Positions 1 through 4,281 of a stretch of 4,281 nt of DNA are shown in pieces. The stretch is taken from the IMG/VR virus record IMGVR_UViG_3300029190_000076; one strand, 5' to 3'. Each line of letters opens with the position of its first letter. The stretch's first letter is position 1. Position numbers and translations under genes: made by a program. This stretch comes from a virus (taxonomy: Duplodnaviria > Heunggongvirae > Uroviricota > Caudoviricetes). The notes below the pieces were generated by a model that was not told where the DNA came from, searched no databases, and saw nothing but the letters and a program-made list of their open reading frames with translations.

Positions 1-334
1 GAAAGGCTGGGCCATACTCCTCCGGCAGAAGCAGAAAAAGCTTATTATGCTTCCATCGGAAACGATGATCTGGCAGCCTGAGTTCACAGATAAAACACTC
101 TCCAGGAAACCCGGGGCGGTTCACTACGACTTGGGAAGACGCTTCATACCAAAGTCTATAAAGTTTTTCTTCTTCGTTTGGGTTATTAGGCTCACCACGT
201 TTTAATTTTTCAGTATATAAAATTGTTGAATAAATCGCAGGAGTTAATCCAGTGATTGCCCTCTGCCGCAGATCGGATTTGTTTGTTATCCACCCCAACA
301 GACGATCTCCCATCCATGTGATAATTGTATCCAT
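1..334 (-). CDS. Hypothetical protein, partial: first 111 codons in window, ORF continues past the left edge with no stop seen
   Basis: Hand translation of minus strand from ATG at 334-332: MDTIITWMGDRLLGWITNKSDLRQRAITGLTPAIYSTILYTEKLKRGEPNNPNEEEKLYRLWYEASSQVVVNRPGFPGECFICELRLPDHRFRWKHNKLFLLLPEEYGPAF, open down to position 2. In-frame TAA at 340-338 just upstream of the ATG. AAGGG Shine-Dalgarno-like motif at 346-342, 7 nt before the ATG. Absent from the supplied ORF track, presumably because it has no stop inside the window. No family recognised from memory. Confidence 0.55.
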   Translation of the reverse strand, partial: MDTIITWMGDRLLGWITNKSDLRQRAITGLTPAIYSTILYTEKLKRGEPNNPNEEEKLYRLWYEASSQVVVNRPGFPGECFICELRLPDHRFRWKHNKLFLLLPEEYGPAF

Positions 335-795
335 GCTTTAGCCCTTCTTAGTAAATAGTGTGTAGGGCGACTGAAGGACCGAGTTTATGCTTTTTCGCAT
401 TGCTTTCAGTTAGTACACCGGTATCGCACCGGAAACAATCCTACGGCAAATTGGTTGTCTGACCTCTCGGTTTTTCGTGCATTAACCGATACCCACTACA
501 GTCTCGGCGAAAGCTGCACACCCCCAGGGTGTACTGGTAGCACTCGGCACAGCCTAGCACGCCACTTTCTTCTCACTATCCAGTCTAATTTTATCCCCTA
601 GTCAGACACTCAGATGTAGTGCTCCGCAGCGGCATGCGGGGGAATACAAAAACTCGGACAAAATTGGGCCCTCCTTTTTGAATCACTCGCGGGGATGTAG
701 TTATTAATACATGGAAAAAGATCTGTTTTCAAATCCAACATTATATGGTTTCAATACCACGGGGTGGCTATGTGTTTCTCATTGTTAATTGGAAT
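335..795 (-). other. 461-bp ORF-free spacer between two same-strand ORFs; candidate structured non-coding RNA or long 5' leader, function unknown
   Basis: After the TAG at 798-796 all three minus-strand frames hit stops within 15 codons, and stops recur throughout. The supplied track has no ORF on either strand between 335 and 763. Inverted repeats read directly on the + strand: 412-419 agtacacc with 528-535 ggtgtact (8 bp, about 108 nt apart); 378-383 accgag with 466-471 ctcggt; 370-375 actgaa with 405-410 ttcagt, enclosing 387-390 atgc with 397-400 gcat; local hairpin 518-523 acaccc with 527-532 gggtgt (3-nt loop). GC is visibly higher than in the adjacent recombinase gene. Confidence 0.3.
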
Positions 796-1119
796 CTACT
801 GTAATCGATCCGAACGTAAATGCGGCAAAACTCGACTCCACTTATCATCCTGCCACGGCCGGAATTTTACATGTGCCGTTTCTCTGGCAAGGATTGCCTG
901 TGCCTTATTGAGTATCTGGGGATATTCTTGCTCGATAGAAGTGAAGCGACCAGCTTCACGATGCTCCGCAACCTGAAGAAGAGGAGTAACGTTCTGGTAG
1001 GTAATTAACATCACATTCCCTGCTCGCCATAACCAGGCGAGTGTGCAAAGTTCGTTATCAGTGAATTGTTTTGTGATTGGGTATTGTTGAACTGCTAGAA
1101 CGAGAACGCCAGCATCCAT
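796..1119 (-). CDS. Hypothetical 107-aa protein (orphan ORF immediately downstream of the recombinase gene)
   Basis: ORF from the supplied track: MDAGVLVLAVQQYPITKQFTDNELCTLAWLWRAGNVMLITYQNVTPLLQVAEHREAGRFTSIEQEYPQILNKAQAILARETAHVKFRPWQDDKWSRVLPHLRSDRLQ. Bounded by an in-frame TAG three codons upstream of the ATG at 1119-1117, so it is not a frameshifted tail of a longer gene. Composition is protein-like, not low-complexity. Weaknesses: only a weak GAGA-type SD upstream, no recognised motif, and it overlaps spurious + strand ORFs. Confidence 0.4.
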   Translation of the reverse strand: MDAGVLVLAVQQYPITKQFTDNELCTLAWLWRAGNVMLITYQNVTPLLQVAEHREAGRFTSIEQEYPQILNKAQAILARETAHVKFRPWQDDKWSRVLPHLRSDRLQ

Positions 1120-1230
1120 TGGCAGTCTCTATAGTAAAACCATAGCTCAGGACGCTTCGTTCAGGATAGATAATTTTATTGTACTTACCTAACTTTCTTA
1201 CTATAGCACGGTTGAAAAAGTGATTATTAC

Positions 1231-2757
1231 TCAAAAATAAACCTCACCATCAACCATATATTTGAGAGTACTTATCGCCTGCTGGGCGGATATTGTTTTC
1301 ATTAAAGGATAGTGTTTAAAAACAATGCCATTCATAAAATAGATATCACAGGTTTTATTATCTGTATTGATTATGATTTTTTCGAATGTTTTATAGGCAA
1401 GTGTACGACATAGCTCTCGCCCATTTTTACTGGTTAAGTCAATAGCATGAAAATCACCAAGTGAACTCACCGCTTTACTCTTCAAAGTTTTTAATGATAC
1501 AGAAGCCCTTCGTAATTCCTTATCTAATACTCTGATTTTTTCTGCTATAGCGGTAACTTCAGGCGCAACAGATAATGCAGCAATTAAATTATTAATTTTC
1601 ATCTGGAGCTCAATAATTTTCAACTCTAAAGTTTCATTAGCATCTTTCTTGTTTTCAACTGGTTGGATTTTACTACAATTAAAAAGCAACTCATTAATGA
1701 TATTATAATCAACCAAATCTCTCTTTATTGATGGCCTGTCACATCGATGCAGTCTTCTCATCGGACAAACATAATAGCCATGCAAACTTCCAGATACCGC
1801 ATGAACAATCATGGTATTACCACAAGCCTCGCACTTCATAACTGTTCGAAGTAGATTTATCAACATAGGATTTTTGCTACTATTGCTAATACCAAAAGGT
1901 GCCAACCGAATTTCCTGTACAGCGTAAAACAAATCATCTGATATGACTCTGGGATAATAGCCAGCGATTTCACTTATTCCTTTACCTCTTGCACGATATG
2001 AAGGTACGCATATACCTATCAGAGCTTTATTCGCTAATAATTTTTCAATTACAGAAGGTCCCCATGCACTTTCTTTTCCTGAGAAATTCTTTACAGCATG
2101 ATCATTTAAATACTTGGCTATTGCATTCAATGAGCGCCTTTCCATCCTGAGTTTAAAAATTAGCTCAATAGTTTTCACCCTGTCGGGGTCTGGAACAAAA
2201 GCCGTTCTTTTGTCATCTAAGGAGAGCCATCTCGGACAAGACGCCGTCATAATCGTACCTGATTCCAGTGCATCCTGCCGTTTTTTCTTCCATGATAATT
2301 TAACCCGACTTGACTTTATCTCGCTTTCTTCATTTGCCCTTTGTGCTATAAGTATGGCTTTTATTAATGAATATGGCTCATTCAAAGAGTCAATATTATA
2401 GACTGTATTGTCGCAAAGAGTTATAACATCAATACCGTGATTCAAAATCAATTTCAGACGTTCAATCGCTTCACCGACTTTTTCTCTTGAAAGTCTGTCC
2501 AGACTTTCAACTAACAATGTAGTTCCTGGCAATATATAACCATGCTCTATAGCATCTAAAAATTCCGAAAAAGCTCCTGATTGTGCATGCTTTCCTTTGA
2601 ATGCACTTAATCCTAAATCTTCATATGTTATGGTATCAAGATAATAATCACTATTTACCTTTAACCATTCAGCAATAAGTCTTCTCTGTCGGTTTAATGA
2701 GTCGCCAGACATCTGACCTGGTGATGAAAATCGCATATATGCTATGGCTTTTTTCAT
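1231..2757 (-). CDS. ybcK: Large serine recombinase (resolvase/invertase-type catalytic domain + recombinase domain + zinc ribbon + coiled coil), 508 aa; YbcK-like
   Basis: N-terminus MKKAIAYMRFSSPGQ carries the Y-x-R-x-S catalytic motif, with Ser11 as predicted nucleophile. DSLNRQ and LLVESLDRLSR motifs are typical of the serine-recombinase catalytic domain. A Cys4 zinc-ribbon pattern follows (CEAC ... YYVC ... HRC), then a predicted C-terminal coiled coil (ETLELKIIELQMKINNLIAALS...). AGGTG SD at 2767-2763, 5 nt before the ATG at 2757-2755. Length 508 aa and position just downstream of emrE match my recollection of ybcK in the E. coli K-12 DLP12 prophage. Very AT-rich, about 30% GC on a hand-counted sample line. 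Confidence 0.9.
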   Translation of the reverse strand: MKKAIAYMRFSSPGQMSGDSLNRQRRLIAEWLKVNSDYYLDTITYEDLGLSAFKGKHAQSGAFSEFLDAIEHGYILPGTTLLVESLDRLSREKVGEAIERLKLILNHGIDVITLCDNTVYNIDSLNEPYSLIKAILIAQRANEESEIKSSRVKLSWKKKRQDALESGTIMTASCPRWLSLDDKRTAFVPDPDRVKTIELIFKLRMERRSLNAIAKYLNDHAVKNFSGKESAWGPSVIEKLLANKALIGICVPSYRARGKGISEIAGYYPRVISDDLFYAVQEIRLAPFGISNSSKNPMLINLLRTVMKCEACGNTMIVHAVSGSLHGYYVCPMRRLHRCDRPSIKRDLVDYNIINELLFNCSKIQPVENKKDANETLELKIIELQMKINNLIAALSVAPEVTAIAEKIRVLDKELRRASVSLKTLKSKAVSSLGDFHAIDLTSKNGRELCRTLAYKTFEKIIINTDNKTCDIYFMNGIVFKHYPLMKTISAQQAISTLKYMVDGEVYF

Positions 2758-2940
2758 GGTGACACCTGCTAACGTATGCTTTTATAAACCTTAGTGGTGG
2801 GATATAATTTTTGTTTAATTTTTATTTAAAAAGACAATTAAGGTCACATTATCTTGAATATACAACAATAATCGTATTGCAATTTTCTTACGCCATAATC
2901 TTGAAAGCACAAAAGAATACATAAAAAAATAAAGACATTA
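2758..2940 (-). promoter_or_regulatory. AT-rich spacer upstream of the recombinase gene containing its RBS and presumably its promoter; exact -35/-10 not assigned
   Basis: Extremely AT-rich (for example 2801-2860 atataatttttgtttaatttttatttaaaaagacaattaaggtcacattatcttgaatat). Lies between the emrE terminator and the recombinase start. Several TATAAT-like hexamers are present, but none could be singled out by eye. Confidence 0.3.
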
Positions 2941-2982
2941 ACAAAAAGCATAAAACGAGGCTCATATAAATATAAGAGCCTC
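2941..2982 (-). terminator. Putative rho-independent terminator downstream of emrE
   Basis: On the minus strand, about 31 nt after the emrE stop: 7-bp stem GAGGCTC/GAGCCTC (+ strand 2957-2963 and 2976-2982) with a 12-nt loop, followed by the U-rich run GUUUUAUGCUUUUUGU (reverse complement of + 2941-2956). The loop is larger than ideal, hence moderate confidence. Confidence 0.45.
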
Positions 2983-3013
2983 CATATTTTAGTCGTTTAG
3001 AAACAAATTATTT

Positions 3014-3346
3014 TTAATGTGGTGTGCTTCGTGACAATAAATTAATAACCAACACACCGGCACAAATCAACATCATGCCTATAATGGCTGGCAGGTCCAG
3101 CCGTTGGCCGAAAAGTCCCCATGACAGTAAGCTAATCAGGACAATACCGACTCCTGACCAGATAGCATAAGCAATCCCTGTAGGAATATAAGCCAGCGTC
3201 TGAGCTAATAACCAGAATGATGCACAATAACAAATAATTGTACCAACAGATGGCCATAACCGTGTAAAACCTTCTGAAAACTTCATTAAGGTTGTACCAA
3301 TGACCTCTGCAAGTATTGCACCACCAAGATAAATATAAGGGTTCAT
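3014..3346 (-). CDS. emrE: SMR-family multidrug efflux transporter EmrE (110 aa)
   Basis: Product MNPYIYLGGAILAEVIGTTLMKFSEGFTRLWPSVGTIICYCASFWLLAQTLAYIPTGIAYAIWSGVGIVLISLLSWGLFGQRLDLPAIIGMMLICAGVLVINLLSRSTPH matches E. coli EmrE nearly residue-for-residue from memory. The membrane-embedded Glu14 essential for proton/drug coupling is present, with four hydrophobic segments. Start placed at ATG 3346-3344 rather than the track's 3400: this gives the canonical 110-aa length and has AGGAAAG at 3361-3355 upstream. Stop TAA at 3016-3014. Confidence 0.95.
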   Translation of the reverse strand: MNPYIYLGGAILAEVIGTTLMKFSEGFTRLWPSVGTIICYCASFWLLAQTLAYIPTGIAYAIWSGVGIVLISLLSWGLFGQRLDLPAIIGMMLICAGVLVINLLSRSTPH

Positions 3347-3361
3347 AGAATATTCTTTCCT

Positions 3362-3396
3362 GTTCAAACTGGAGAGAATTGTACTACAGTTTGAAC
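3362..3396. repeat. Perfect 10-bp inverted repeat (gttcaaactg / cagtttgaac) with 15-bp spacer, between ren stop and emrE RBS
   Basis: Read directly: + strand 3362-3371 gttcaaactg is the exact reverse complement of 3387-3396 cagtttgaac. The 15-nt spacer is gagagaattgtacta. The arm at 3362 abuts the emrE SD at 3361. No U-tract follows on the minus strand, so it is not a canonical intrinsic terminator. Confidence 0.6.
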
Positions 3397-3413
3397 TCAA
3401 CTCACCTGTTTCA

Positions 3414-3716
3414 TCATTGTGTACCCATTGATGTTCTTTTATATACCCTCAATACCCGTTTCATCGCGGCACTCTGGCGACACTCCTTAAAAATCAGATT
3501 CGTGCTCACCTTTCCTTCCCGTTCTTCTCTGGTAGCAAACCGGTAATACACCGTTCGCCAGACCTTACCTTCGATAGCCAGAAGACCTGCCCGTGCCATT
3601 TTAGCCGCAGCCTGATTTATGCTGGTTACCGTTGCGCCTGTTACCGCGGCAACGTCCTGCGCACAGAATTTCTTATGAGTCCCCAGGTAATGAATAATTG
3701 CCTCTTTGCCCGTCAT
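3414..3716 (-). CDS. ren: Lambda Ren-like protein (100 aa)
   Basis: Product MTGKEAIIHYLGTHKKFCAQDVAAVTGATVTSINQAAAKMARAGLLAIEGKVWRTVYYRFATREEREGKVSTNLIFKECRQSAAMKRVLRVYKRTSMGTQ resembles lambda Ren from memory. The start ATG at 3716-3714 overlaps the stop TGA of the upstream P-like gene at 3715-3713 (ATGA), as I recall for the P/ren junction in lambda. Confidence 0.8.
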   Translation of the reverse strand: MTGKEAIIHYLGTHKKFCAQDVAAVTGATVTSINQAAAKMARAGLLAIEGKVWRTVYYRFATREEREGKVSTNLIFKECRQSAAMKRVLRVYKRTSMGTQ

Positions 3717-4281
3717 ACCCTTGCTCCTTTCAGCCCAAACTTAGCTTTGATTTCTGCGATCTTCGCCAGAGCCTGTGCACGATTTAGAGGTCTACCGCCC
3801 ATGACAGGAAGTTGTTTTACTGGTTCAGGTATAGCCTCACCACGGTTAATTCGTGCGGTCATACAGGACAGTTCATCGGCAGCCTTGCGCCGTAATTCCG
3901 CGTCAGTCAACGCATTGGCCCGCATGTTCTGATACAGGTTGGTAACCAGCCAGTAGTGCGCGTTTGATTTCCACGGATAAGACTCTGCATCCGGATACAG
4001 CCCGCGCTTCCGGCAATACTCGTAAACCATATCAACCAGCTCGCTGGCGTTTGGCAGCCCGGCGGTAACGGATGCTTCTTCCCGGCACCAGGCGACAAAC
4101 TGCCCGGGTGATGGCAGGAATGGTCGATTCTGCCGACGGGCTACGCGCATTCCAGCGTTAACCTGTTCCATTGTGGTGATCCCGTTTTCCCGAAAAGCCA
4201 GCACCCACTGGCGGCGGATTTCGTTCAGTTCATTCTGGTCACGGTTAGCCAGGCTCGCCGGGAAAGTTGCCAGTAACTGGC
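3713..4281 (-). CDS. P: Lambda-type replication protein P (DnaB helicase loader), C-terminal portion; 5' end lies beyond the right window edge
   Basis: Track ORF 3713..4204 begins at an internal GTG. Hand translation of 4205-4279 stays open in the same frame (QLLATFPASLANRDQNELNEIRRQW, then VLAFRENGITTMEQVNAGMRVARRQNRPFLPSPGQFVAWCREE...KAKFGLKGARV), so the gene continues upstream of the window. Sequence matches lambda P closely from memory. GC is about 53% on a hand-counted sample line. Confidence 0.85.
   Translation of the reverse strand, partial: QLLATFPASLANRDQNELNEIRRQWVLAFRENGITTMEQVNAGMRVARRQNRPFLPSPGQFVAWCREEASVTAGLPNASELVDMVYEYCRKRGLYPDAESYPWKSNAHYWLVTNLYQNMRANALTDAELRRKAADELSCMTARINRGEAIPEPVKQLPVMGGRPLNRAQALAKIAEIKAKFGLKGARV

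What the first reader, a model, noticed from the sequence alone, without database searches (positions are those of the whole stretch)
1231..2757. Complete large serine recombinase embedded inside a lambdoid replication region with no identifiable target sites
All hallmark domains of a large serine recombinase are intact, yet the gene sits internally between ren and further cargo rather than at a prophage end. Lambdoid prophages normally integrate with a tyrosine integrase. The substrate is therefore unknown: it could excise or invert the adjacent cargo, or it could be a remnant of an integrated element that delivered emrE. I could not find the 40-50-bp imperfect palindromic att-like sites expected for such enzymes by eye.
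Basis: partly seen in the sequence, partly recalled or inferred. Interest (0 to 1): 0.5.

Follow-up and report, generated by a model that had tools for sequence, protein, structure and literature searches.

The report
ybcK: orphan serine integrase in lambdoid prophage
The gene is ybcK, an already catalogued but functionally uncharacterised large serine recombinase that many E. coli lambda-like phages carry among their cargo genes; it is intact and kept by selection, but nothing at its own locus looks like a working target site and the locus is never seen rearranged.

Summary
Window 1231-2757 (- strand) is an intact 508-aa large serine recombinase with all domains and catalytic residues. It is ybcK (E. 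coli K-12 b0544, "putative recombinase"), here in a complete DLP12-like prophage at argU that has its own tyrosine integrase.

ybcK occurs in 1424 of 5426 complete E. coli genomes and in isolated lambdoid phages. It always lies in the order P-ren-emrE-ybcK-[variable cargo]-ybcN.

The gene is not decaying. dN/dS is 0.05-0.16, 79 of 80 viral-contig copies are intact, and no catalytic or zinc residue varies.

emrE, ylcJ and ybcK form an AT-rich 2.33-kb block (window ~1107-3440). Its ends cut into ren and a rha-like gene, which points to illegitimate recombination rather than clean site-specific insertion.

I found no att-like sites above chance, and no inversion or permuted prophage.

Relatives at 38-60% identity are free-standing genes in accessory regions of other phages and plasmids. 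One paralogue sits at the end of a prophage inserted inside mdtG, with a reconstructable attP, so the family includes real integrases.

My best reading is an orphaned integrase, still under selection, left by an element that once inserted beside emrE. Its current substrate is unknown. It is a known gene of moderate interest.

The parts
1231..2757 (-). ybcK coding sequence, 508 aa, a large serine recombinase
   Evidence: RefSeq annotates it as ybcK.
2275..2748 (-). N-terminal resolvase-type catalytic domain (aa 4-161). It holds the nucleophile Ser11 together with R9, D87, R88 and R91.
   Evidence: Pfam PF00239. These residues are invariant across the family.
1906..2187 (-). Recombinase (RD) DNA-binding domain, aa 191-284
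   Evidence: Pfam PF07508. The family profile aligns here to the A118 integrase.
1687..1854 (-). Zinc beta-ribbon domain, aa 302-357, with C309, C312, C331 and C339
   Evidence: Pfam PF13408. All four cysteines are invariant.
1474..1656 (-). Predicted coiled-coil motif: two long helices, aa 368-395 and 401-428
   Evidence: AlphaFold2 secondary structure. The region aligns to the coiled-coil part of 4kis.
1237..1428 (-). C-terminal helix and beta subdomain, aa 444-507, which completes the zinc domain region
   Evidence: phrog_2371 covers aa 348-508.
2758..2888 (-). Conserved 130 bp upstream of ybcK (5' leader and likely promoter). Divergence between alleles is 0.8-5%, against 5-10% at ybcK third codon positions.
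   Evidence: A Rho-dependent terminator was reported in the ybcK untranslated leader of K-12 (PMC4150792).
2815..2965 (-). ylcJ small ORF, frameshifted in this strain
   Evidence: RefSeq annotation of the identical genome. ylcJ is intact in K-12.
2954..2985 (-). Hairpin followed by a T-run downstream of emrE. Read by eye as the emrE terminator.
   Evidence: The palindrome was found; the sequence is. The terminator scan did not call it.
2995..3012 (-). Left end of the ybcK segment, AATAATTTGTTTCTAAAC. This is a candidate fossil attL half-site and is weakly supported.
   Evidence: Homology between K-12 and E. coli W breaks here. It matches 14 of 17 positions of the P' arm of the mdtG prophage attP. 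It is poorly conserved among alleles.
3014..3346 (-). emrE, a small multidrug resistance (SMR) efflux gene. It is part of the same AT-rich block.
   Evidence: Pfam PF00893. The module 3007-3423 is shared with the chromosomal emrE of E. coli W at 92% identity.
1107..3440 (.). The whole AT-rich foreign block, made up of emrE, ylcJ', ybcK and 124 bp of 3' flank
   Evidence: Homology to phages that lack ybcK stops at 1106 and resumes at 3441 or 3471. GC is 31-42% inside the block and 48-59% outside.
796..1119 (-). Truncated 3' part of a rha / P22 antirepressor-like gene, cut by the right end of the block
   Evidence: Pfam P22_AR_C. The full-length Rha gene of phage PhiR5_1 matches only window 814-1106.
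3414..3716 (-). ren-like gene. Its last codons are replaced at the left end of the block.
   Evidence: phrog_142. Prophages with ren but no block diverge from the window at 3441.
3713..4281 (-). Replication protein P (3' part lies in the window)
   Evidence: Pfam PF06992.

Best explanation
The gene is ybcK, an integrase-type large serine recombinase (LSR) that has become a fixed part of the cargo region of DLP12-type lambdoid phages. That region lies between the replication genes P/ren and the nin genes.

Shown: the protein has every feature of a working serine integrase and is kept by purifying selection. It is carried by plaque-forming phages that integrate with their own tyrosine integrase. 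Its locus is structurally invariant. The AT-rich emrE-ylcJ-ybcK block ends inside ren and inside a rha-like gene, so it reached this position by illegitimate recombination and then spread by homologous exchange between phages.

Inferred: ybcK descends from the integrase of a separate element, probably prophage-like, that once inserted immediately downstream of emrE. The comparison is the paralogue that sits at the end of a prophage inside mdtG. The body of that element and its att sites have decayed, leaving an orphan integrase.

Inferred from family knowledge: if it acts, a YbcK dimer binds each of two ~40-50-bp sites. The sites synapse through the coiled-coil motifs. Ser11 then cuts all four strands with a 2-bp stagger, and subunit rotation exchanges the partners.

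Those sites are not recognisable in this window, so any present-day substrate lies elsewhere (in trans). In lysogens the gene is probably largely silent, because the K-12 leader carries a Rho-dependent terminator. It would be read through with the delayed-early PR transcript (inference).
For: Identity and intactness.

Selection: pairwise dN/dS is 0.05-0.16 with dS up to 0.17. Among 80 viral contigs, 79 have intact ORFs, there are 48 alleles with 92 synonymous and 39 nonsynonymous variants, and no catalytic or zinc residue varies. ybcK is present in 1424 of 5426 complete E. coli genomes, and 1398 of these hold it essentially full-length.

Active phages with their own tyrosine Int and Xis.

Block boundaries inside ren and rha. 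AT-rich composition.

Invariant synteny.

The family includes a real integrase. In E. coli FDAARGOS_944, a 509-aa paralogue (38% identity over 486 aa) is the terminal gene of a ~15-kb degraded prophage that splits mdtG. No tyrosine integrase is annotated in that prophage. attB, attL and attR share a 7-bp overlap, and the reconstructed attP is a ~46-bp imperfect palindrome 36 bp upstream of the gene.

Possible fossil site: relative to the emrE-ybcL arrangement of E. coli W, K-12 carries a ~2.07-kb ylcJ-ybcK segment flanked by AATAAT. Its emrE-proximal end resembles the P' arm of the mdtG attP.

Rho-dependent terminator in the ybcK leader: PMC4150792.
Against: Strong purifying selection is hard to reconcile with a purely orphan enzyme, so some function must persist and I could not identify it.

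The fossil-attL resemblance is post hoc (14 of 17 positions). It rests on one comparator that is only 38% identical. It has no matching inverted half-site at the other end. It also lies in the least conserved part of the block.

The W-type locus is itself a decayed prophage remnant, with a quuD fragment. It may therefore be a deletion derivative between AATAAT microrepeats rather than an empty site.

Distant homologues (42-60% identity) also sit in the nin region of unrelated lambdoid phages (L018, L021, L040). That recurrence suggests a position-linked phage function rather than an accident.
Confidence: 0.45

Rival explanations
1. ybcK is simply a moron. The emrE-ylcJ-ybcK block was copied in one piece from an AT-rich donor by illegitimate recombination. 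It never had att sites here. The recombinase is an accessory phage gene whose product acts on DNA elsewhere, for example on the host chromosome, on competing phages or satellites, or on replication and packaging intermediates.
For: The block ends cut into ren and rha, and the composition is AT-rich.

Homologues are free-standing, gene-sized modules. L007 and L018 share only the stretch from -68 bp to the stop codon of the LSR. These modules sit in accessory hot spots next to other cargo: SIR2, KGG and DinI; UmuD/UmuC; HumD-like, recognised by eye from the GFPSPA motif; NACHT and RelA/SpoT on a plasmid.

Homologues recur between the replication genes and Q in lambdoid prophages of Atlantibacter and Pantoea. 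In Pantoea dispersa a tyrosine integrase is visible in the same prophage.

Purifying selection.
Against: No substrate, partner gene or conserved flanking motif was found. PADLOC finds nothing. emrE exists without ybcK, so the two genes are separable modules. This rival overlaps with the best explanation and differs only on origin.
Confidence: 0.3
2. YbcK currently excises, inverts or exchanges the adjacent cargo as a cassette system, or it serves as a second integration system for the phage.
For: The cargo immediately downstream of ybcK varies between phages: ybcL/ybcM, an alpha/beta hydrolase, or a rha fragment.

A K-12-only 50-bp palindrome with perfect 13-nt arms lies 199 bp downstream of ybcK.

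In L018 a perfect 16-nt inverted repeat brackets the KGG gene, with one arm in the 3' end of the LSR ORF.
Against: Order and orientation are invariant in 80 of 80 loci. No class of genomes has breakpoints at the K-12 palindrome. The downstream junctions fall at many different positions, and about 70-100 bp after the stop codon is shared by all variants. No prophage is permuted at ybcK. The inverted repeats are not conserved between loci. Palindromes are not enriched in the window.
Confidence: 0.1
3. ybcK is a dead relic of a grounded element, on its way to becoming a pseudogene.
For: It sits in cryptic prophages such as DLP12 of K-12. It is lost from the fliE-adjacent remnant that keeps emrE, ybcL and ybcM. 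It is transcriptionally silenced in K-12.
Against: dN/dS is about 0.05-0.16. 79 of 80 ORFs are intact, and all catalytic and zinc residues are invariant across 48 alleles and across genera. The gene is retained in plaque-forming phages.
Confidence: 0.05

Closest known systems
YbcK of E. coli K-12 (b0544, UniProt P77698), DLP12 prophage 'putative recombinase'
   Same: This is the same gene. It is 508 aa, with DNA about 97% identical across the ORF. It has the same neighbours, ren-emrE-ylcJ upstream, and the same RefSeq gene name.
   Different: In K-12 the gene is followed by 355 bp and then ybcL-ybcM. Here it is followed by a truncated rha-like gene. The first ~600 nt are identical to K-12 and the 3' part diverges, so the allele is a mosaic. 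In the papers I could search, no recombination activity or target has been reported for K-12 YbcK.
Phage serine integrases with solved structures (A118/LI integrase 4kis, Bxb1, PhiC31, and the integrase of entry 9dxd solved with its RDF)
   Same: The four-part architecture and the catalytic residues are the same. Profile and fold matches run over the full length.
   Different: Sequence identity is only 15-20%. Those enzymes sit next to their attP and are the sole integrase of their phage. YbcK sits in the nin region of a phage that has a tyrosine integrase, with no recognisable att site.
YbcK paralogue at the end of the mdtG-inserted prophage (E. coli FDAARGOS_944, WP_038339359.1; Shigella flexneri SFBU1023)
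   Same: It is 509 aa, 38% identical over 486 aa, with the same domain order. The left-end motif GTTYCTAAAC preceded by ATAAT occurs in both.
   Different: It is the terminal gene of an element that splits a host ORF, with definable attL, attR, attB and a palindromic attP. ybcK is internal and lacks the partner half-site.
Small serine invertases of K-12 cryptic prophages (PinQ, PinR, PinE)
   Same: They are serine recombinases encoded by cryptic lambdoid prophages. Recent work shows such 'leftover' recombinases can have host-level functions (PMC12529663).
   Different: Those are ~190-aa invertases with flanking inverted crossover sites next to tail-fibre genes. YbcK is a 508-aa integrase-type enzyme with no invertible segment.

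Membership tests
Large serine recombinases (serine integrases) | N-terminal resolvase-type catalytic domain with a nucleophilic Ser and the conserved Arg/Asp residues | tested here: met
   PF00239, E=8e-19. R9, S11, D87, R88 and R91 are invariant.
Large serine recombinases (serine integrases) | Recombinase domain (RD) following the long E-helix | tested here: met
   PF07508, E=2e-14. Model helix 128-166 is followed by the RD.
Large serine recombinases (serine integrases) | Zinc-ribbon domain with four Cys ligands | tested here: met
   PF13408, E=8e-8. C309, C312, C331 and C339 are invariant.
Large serine recombinases (serine integrases) | Coiled-coil motif inserted in the zinc domain | tested here: met
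   Predicted helices 368-395 and 401-428. The region aligns to the coiled-coil part of A118 integrase. Full-length fold matches. This is a prediction, not an experiment.
Large serine recombinases (serine integrases) | Cognate ~40-50-bp imperfectly palindromic att sites, normally next to the gene | tested here: inconclusive
   No enrichment of palindromes and no conserved inverted repeats. There is only a weak half-site resemblance at window 2995-3012.
Large serine recombinases (serine integrases) | Gene located at the boundary of the element it integrates | tested here: not met
   The gene is internal, and the prophage ends carry intD at argU. The order P-ren-emrE-ybcK-cargo-ybcN holds in 80 of 80 loci. 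The feature is met by the mdtG paralogue.
Large serine recombinases (serine integrases) | Demonstrated recombination activity, and a recombination directionality factor | not testable with these tools
   No report was found in the searchable literature.
Small serine invertases/resolvases (Hin, Gin, Pin; Tn3 resolvase) | About 180-200 aa with a C-terminal helix-turn-helix, acting on nearby inverted or res sites | tested here: not met
   The protein is 508 aa with RD and zinc domains instead of an HTH. No invertible segment is present.
XisF-type developmental excision recombinases | Match to the NCBIfam equivalog NF041201 above its cut-off | tested here: not met
   Score 47.9 bits against a cut-off of 375.
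Phage morons / accessory cargo | Compositionally foreign block lying between conserved phage genes, present in some related phages and absent from others | tested here: met
   GC is 31-42% inside against 48-59% in the flanks. The block is absent from IdasGreatGrand, PhiR5_1 and ETEC1738, whose flanks are otherwise homologous.
Known anti-phage defence systems (PADLOC models) | Match to a PADLOC model | tested here: not met
   No family matched at E<=0.01.

The most novel reading that the evidence does not exclude
YbcK-family recombinases would be a distinct class of accessory serine integrases of temperate phages and plasmids. They travel as gene-sized modules into cargo hot spots (the nin region, the tail-fibre end, plasmid accessory regions). 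They are kept by selection because they act in trans. One possibility is that they mobilise or capture small cargo cassettes (morons) between co-resident elements. Another is that they act on sites in the host or in rival elements during lytic growth. Either role differs from serving as the phage's own integrase.
Probability: 0.12. Interest if true: 0.6.

Novelty: already known. Interest (0 to 1): 0.3.

Why it matters
ybcK is one of the 16 site-specific recombinase genes of E. coli K-12 listed in PMC5426353, and I found no reported activity or target for it. This analysis shows that it is not junk. It is intact, under purifying selection, present in about a quarter of complete E. coli genomes, and carried by infectious lambdoid phages that do not need it for integration. 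That makes 'what does it recombine?' a well-posed experimental question, and the report gives concrete material to test: candidate sites, and a paralogue with a reconstructable attP/attB pair in mdtG. The practical value is modest. It could yield a new serine integrase/att pair for genome engineering, and it could show how cargo such as emrE moves among phages. It does not overturn anything known.

Tried and rejected
- Rfam scan of the window at E<=1 found nothing.
- PADLOC found no defence-family match.
- Direct and inverted repeats in the window were short, AT-rich and at chance level. The 15-16-nt repeat pairing the ybcK 5' coding region with the stop-codon flank is expected about 0.4 times by chance and would destroy the gene.
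- An ungapped scan for palindromes (15-nt arms, 2-30-nt spacer) gave 5 hits against 2.7 +/- 2.6 in shuffles. The hits were the emrE hairpins and a coding palindrome. The scan also missed the positive-control attP because its arms contain indels, so it is insensitive.
- The K-12-only 50-bp palindrome downstream of ybcK is absent from this window, and no genome class breaks at it.
- The L018 16-nt inverted repeat around KGG, and the 3'-end repeats in other loci, are not conserved between loci.
- I asked whether the variable downstream cargo reflects a fixed recombination point. It does not. All variants share ~70-100 bp after the stop codon, K-12 in a diverged form, and breakpoints then differ. 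The O157 form is a deletion between CTATC repeats.
- The partial gene duplications flanking the LSR in L018 (DUF1367, 181 nt at 86%) and in L040 (the P gene) are best read as scars of illegitimate mosaic recombination, not as att sites.
- Conserved non-coding motifs downstream of the LSR across genera gave only one 27-nt AT-rich similarity between the window and L007 (z=8.4). I did not pursue it.
- I could not establish whether the homologues at the tail-fibre end (L007, L010, L012, L026, L027) are the sole integrases of their prophages, because only 10 kb of flank was available.
- Literature searches found no functional study of YbcK as a recombinase. I found only a sabinene-tolerance phenotype, use of the ybcK leader as a Rho terminator, and gene lists.
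Full report
**1. What is at the coordinates**

Window 1231-2757 on the minus strand is a single 508-codon ORF. Pfam places three domains in the order expected of a large serine recombinase. These are Resolvase at aa 4-161, Recombinase at aa 191-284 and the recombinase zinc beta-ribbon at aa 302-357, all above the curated thresholds.

I aligned YbcK with 14 relatives at 28-61% identity. The catalytic residues R9, S11, D87, R88 and R91, the E-helix residues E144, S145, K148 and R151, and the four cysteines C309, C312, C331 and C339 are all invariant. A profile of that alignment matches the recombinase, zinc and coiled-coil region of the A118 serine integrase (4kis, E=4e-15).

An AlphaFold2 model (mean pLDDT 79.6) shows two long helices at aa 368-428 where the coiled-coil motif is expected. 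Its best PDB matches are full-length serine integrases bound to att DNA, including Bxb1 and PhiC31.

**2. What it is called and where it lives**

The window is 100% identical to a stretch of the E. coli WP5-S18-ESBL-08 chromosome, where RefSeq annotates the ORF as ybcK. It is the orthologue of K-12 b0544, the 'putative recombinase YbcK' of cryptic prophage DLP12.

In the source genome the gene lies in a complete lambdoid prophage next to tRNA-Arg, with the tyrosine integrase intD at the prophage end. The window reads, all on the minus strand:
- P
- ren
- emrE
- ylcJ (frameshifted here)
- ybcK
- the 3' part of a rha / P22-antirepressor-like gene
- about 670 bp with only small ORFs
- the end of an IS3-family element at 1-123

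The papers I could search list ybcK among the 16 K-12 site-specific recombinase genes (PMC5426353). They use its leader as a Rho-dependent terminator (PMC4150792) and report a sabinene-tolerance phenotype (PMC7181518). None reports a recombination activity or a target.

**3. Distribution and selection**

ybcK is present in 1424 of 5426 complete E. coli genomes. In 1398 of these it is essentially full-length, at 95-100% identity. Twelve phage records in the collection also carry it, including Perceval, Turner, 4A7, D2, 1W and 3W. Perceval has its own tyrosine integrase and excisionase, so YbcK is not the phage's integrase.

Pairwise dN/dS among seven alleles is 0.05-0.16, with dS up to 0.17. 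In 80 IMG/VR contigs carrying ybcK, 79 ORFs are intact. There are 48 distinct alleles, with 92 synonymous and 39 nonsynonymous segregating codon variants. None of these touches a catalytic or zinc-binding residue. This is purifying selection, so the gene is not a decaying relic.

**4. Anatomy of the block**

Phages that lack ybcK but share the flanks define the block:
- IdasGreatGrand matches window 124-1106 and 3471-4281.
- PhiR5_1 matches 814-1106, which is the 3' part of its full-length Rha gene, and 3441-4281.
- An ETEC prophage with ren followed directly by ninB matches from 3441.

The foreign block is therefore about window 1107-3440 (2.33 kb). It holds emrE, ylcJ and ybcK plus 124 bp of 3' flank. 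Its GC content is 31-42%, against 48-59% outside. It removes the last codons of ren and the 5' half of rha. In IdasGreatGrand a different 2.27-kb set of genes occupies the same place. That is the signature of illegitimate recombination followed by mosaic exchange, not of a clean site-specific insertion.

**5. Is the locus ever rearranged?**

Across the sampled E. coli genomes, every ybcK copy has emrE and ren upstream in the same orientation.

In all 80 viral contigs the order is P-ren-emrE-ybcK-[rha fragment | 355 bp + ybcL | alpha/beta hydrolase]-ybcN. There are no inversions and no prophage is permuted at ybcK.

The cargo after ybcK does vary. All variants nevertheless share about 70-100 bp after the stop codon, K-12 in a diverged form. 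Breakpoints then fall at different places, and the O157 form is a deletion between CTATC repeats.

This argues against YbcK shuffling its neighbours.

**6. Search for sites**

- Repeats in the window are at chance level.
- Short-range palindromes are not enriched, with 5 observed against 2.7 +/- 2.6 in shuffles. That ungapped scan is insensitive, because it missed my positive control.
- A perfect 13-nt-arm, 50-bp palindrome lies 199 bp downstream of ybcK in K-12-type loci only. No class of genomes breaks there.
- The 130 bp just upstream of ybcK are better conserved than synonymous sites (0.8-5% against 5-10% at third codon positions). I read this as promoter and leader constraint.
- The 125 bp after emrE are the most variable part of the block, at 1-25% divergence.

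**7. Relatives elsewhere**

Homologues of the same length at 38-61% identity occur across Enterobacterales. They fall into three kinds of context.

Nin region. Some sit between the replication genes and Q in unrelated lambdoid prophages:
- Atlantibacter sp. RC6 (L024) and a similar metagenome contig (L018), next to SIR2, KGG and DinI.
- Pantoea dispersa (L021), where a tyrosine integrase is visible in the same prophage.
- Ca. Pantoea alvi (L040), in inverted orientation between a complete and a partial copy of P.

Tail-fibre end. Others lie next to UmuD/UmuC- or HumD-like genes at the tail-fibre end of prophages in Atlantibacter, Yersinia, Erwinia and Ewingella.

Plasmids. Others sit among cargo on large plasmids, one beside NACHT and RelA/SpoT genes.

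Two related copies in different contexts (L007 and L018) share DNA only from 68 bp upstream of the start codon to the stop codon. In Ewingella a 3.9-kb umuD-umuC-LSR module is 93% identical between prophages whose tail genes are only ~65% identical. The family thus behaves as a gene-sized accessory module.

**8. One relative is clearly an integrase**

In E. coli FDAARGOS_944, and in Shigella flexneri where an IS600 interrupts it, a 509-aa paralogue is the first gene of a ~15-kb degraded prophage that splits the host gene mdtG. The paralogue is 38% identical to YbcK over 486 aa. No tyrosine integrase is annotated in that element.

Comparison with an intact mdtG gives the sites. attB shares a 7-bp overlap (TCAGCAT) with attL and attR. 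The reconstructed attP is an imperfect ~46-bp palindrome, AGTGTATTTAGGGAAC…GGTTCCTAAACACAT, lying 36 bp upstream of the gene. So the family includes real prophage integrases with classical serine-integrase sites.

**9. A possible fossil site next to ybcK**

Thousands of E. coli genomes carry emrE-ybcL-ybcM next to fliE without ybcK, at ~92% identity. This locus is itself a decayed lambdoid remnant, because a fragment of quuD follows ybcM.

Relative to it, K-12 DLP12 has an extra ~2.07 kb (ylcJ, ybcK and ~300 bp) flanked by AATAAT. The emrE-proximal end of that segment is present in this window at 2995-3012. It reads AATAATTTGTTTCTAAAC and matches the P' arm of the mdtG attP (TATAATGGGTTCCTAAAC) at 14 of 17 positions, in the same orientation and at a similar offset. 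The motif occurs at only 0.078 per kb in the loci examined.

This suggests that an element encoding ybcK once integrated just downstream of emrE and then decayed to its integrase. The evidence is post hoc. The other end has no inverted partner. The region is poorly conserved. The fliE locus could equally be a microhomology deletion. I treat it as a lead.

**10. Conclusion**

The finding is real, but it is the known gene ybcK.

Best-supported reading (about 0.45): ybcK is an orphaned integrase-type serine recombinase that is still under selection. It is fixed in the cargo region of DLP12-type lambdoid phages, has no working substrate at its own locus, and acts, if it acts, in trans on unidentified sites.

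Main rival (about 0.3): a plain accessory moron with an unknown trans function and no history of local att sites.

Active rearrangement of the neighbouring cargo (about 0.1) and a dead relic (about 0.05) are disfavoured by the population and selection data.

What stays unexplained is why selection maintains the enzyme, and why distant homologues recur in the same nin-region position. That is the most interesting thread and it needs experiments.

Noticed in passing
window 1-123: This is the end of an IS3-family insertion sequence. Most other genomes and phages match the window only from position 124. The IS interrupts a ~118-aa hypothetical gene that is intact in phage IdasGreatGrand.
   Followed up: partly
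window 3362-3396: A 35-bp near-perfect palindrome (GTTCAAACTGGAG-N9-CTACAGTTTGAAC) lies between the ren stop and the emrE start. It is inside the 418-bp emrE module that is shared with the chromosomal emrE copy. Its function is unknown; it could be an attenuator, a terminator or an operator.
   Followed up: no
window 368-722: A GC-richer stretch (50-53%) with no convincing ORF and no Rfam match. It is 78% identical to unannotated DNA in the Klebsiella phages Kp4856-1 and Kp4862-1.
   Followed up: no
L005 (E. coli W, NC_017664.1 2154080-2166497): The widespread chromosomal emrE-ybcL-ybcM locus beside fliE is a decayed DLP12-like prophage remnant, with a quuD 3' fragment right after ybcM. It kept the three cargo genes but lacks ybcK.
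   Followed up: partly
L106 20166-35352 (E. coli FDAARGOS_944) and L041 (Shigella flexneri): A degraded prophage is inserted inside mdtG, with a YbcK paralogue as its terminal gene. attB, attL and attR are definable, and a ~46-bp palindromic attP can be reconstructed. This is a candidate new integrase/att pair.
   Followed up: yes
L002 7628-7677 (K-12 MG1655, 570527-570576): A perfect 13-nt inverted repeat with a 24-nt spacer (AAAATACGTGACA…TGTCACGTATTTT) lies 199 bp downstream of ybcK. It occurs only in K-12-type loci. About 0.004 such repeats are expected by chance in that region. No population breakpoint falls there.
   Followed up: partly
L018 9671-9851 / 12651-12831; L040 9256-9693 / 12152-12859: In two unrelated lambdoid prophages the LSR-containing segment is bracketed by a partial duplicate of a phage gene. 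In L018 it is the 5' part of DUF1367 at 86% identity. In L040 it is a partial second copy of P. I read these as scars of mosaic recombination.
   Followed up: partly
L026 8064-11935 and L027 8063-11934 (Ewingella): A umuD-umuC-LSR-small ORF module is 93% identical between two prophages whose tail genes are only 63-67% identical and whose downstream flanks are unrelated. This indicates recent horizontal exchange of the module.
   Followed up: partly
window 1231-2757 compared with L002 5903-7429: ybcK alleles are mosaics. The window and K-12 are identical over the first ~600 nt and then differ at 43 positions in the 3' part. emrE is nearly identical in all alleles (about 1% divergence), whereas ybcK third codon positions differ by 5-10%.
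   Followed up: partly
L019 8145-9812 (Citrobacter koseri): A 49%-identical homologue lies divergently next to a 555-aa protein with a faint Shufflon_N hit. A TTCTTGTTTC tandem repeat sits in its upstream region, in a plasmid- or ICE-like context (TraD, MobA). I did not examine this for inversion.
   Followed up: no
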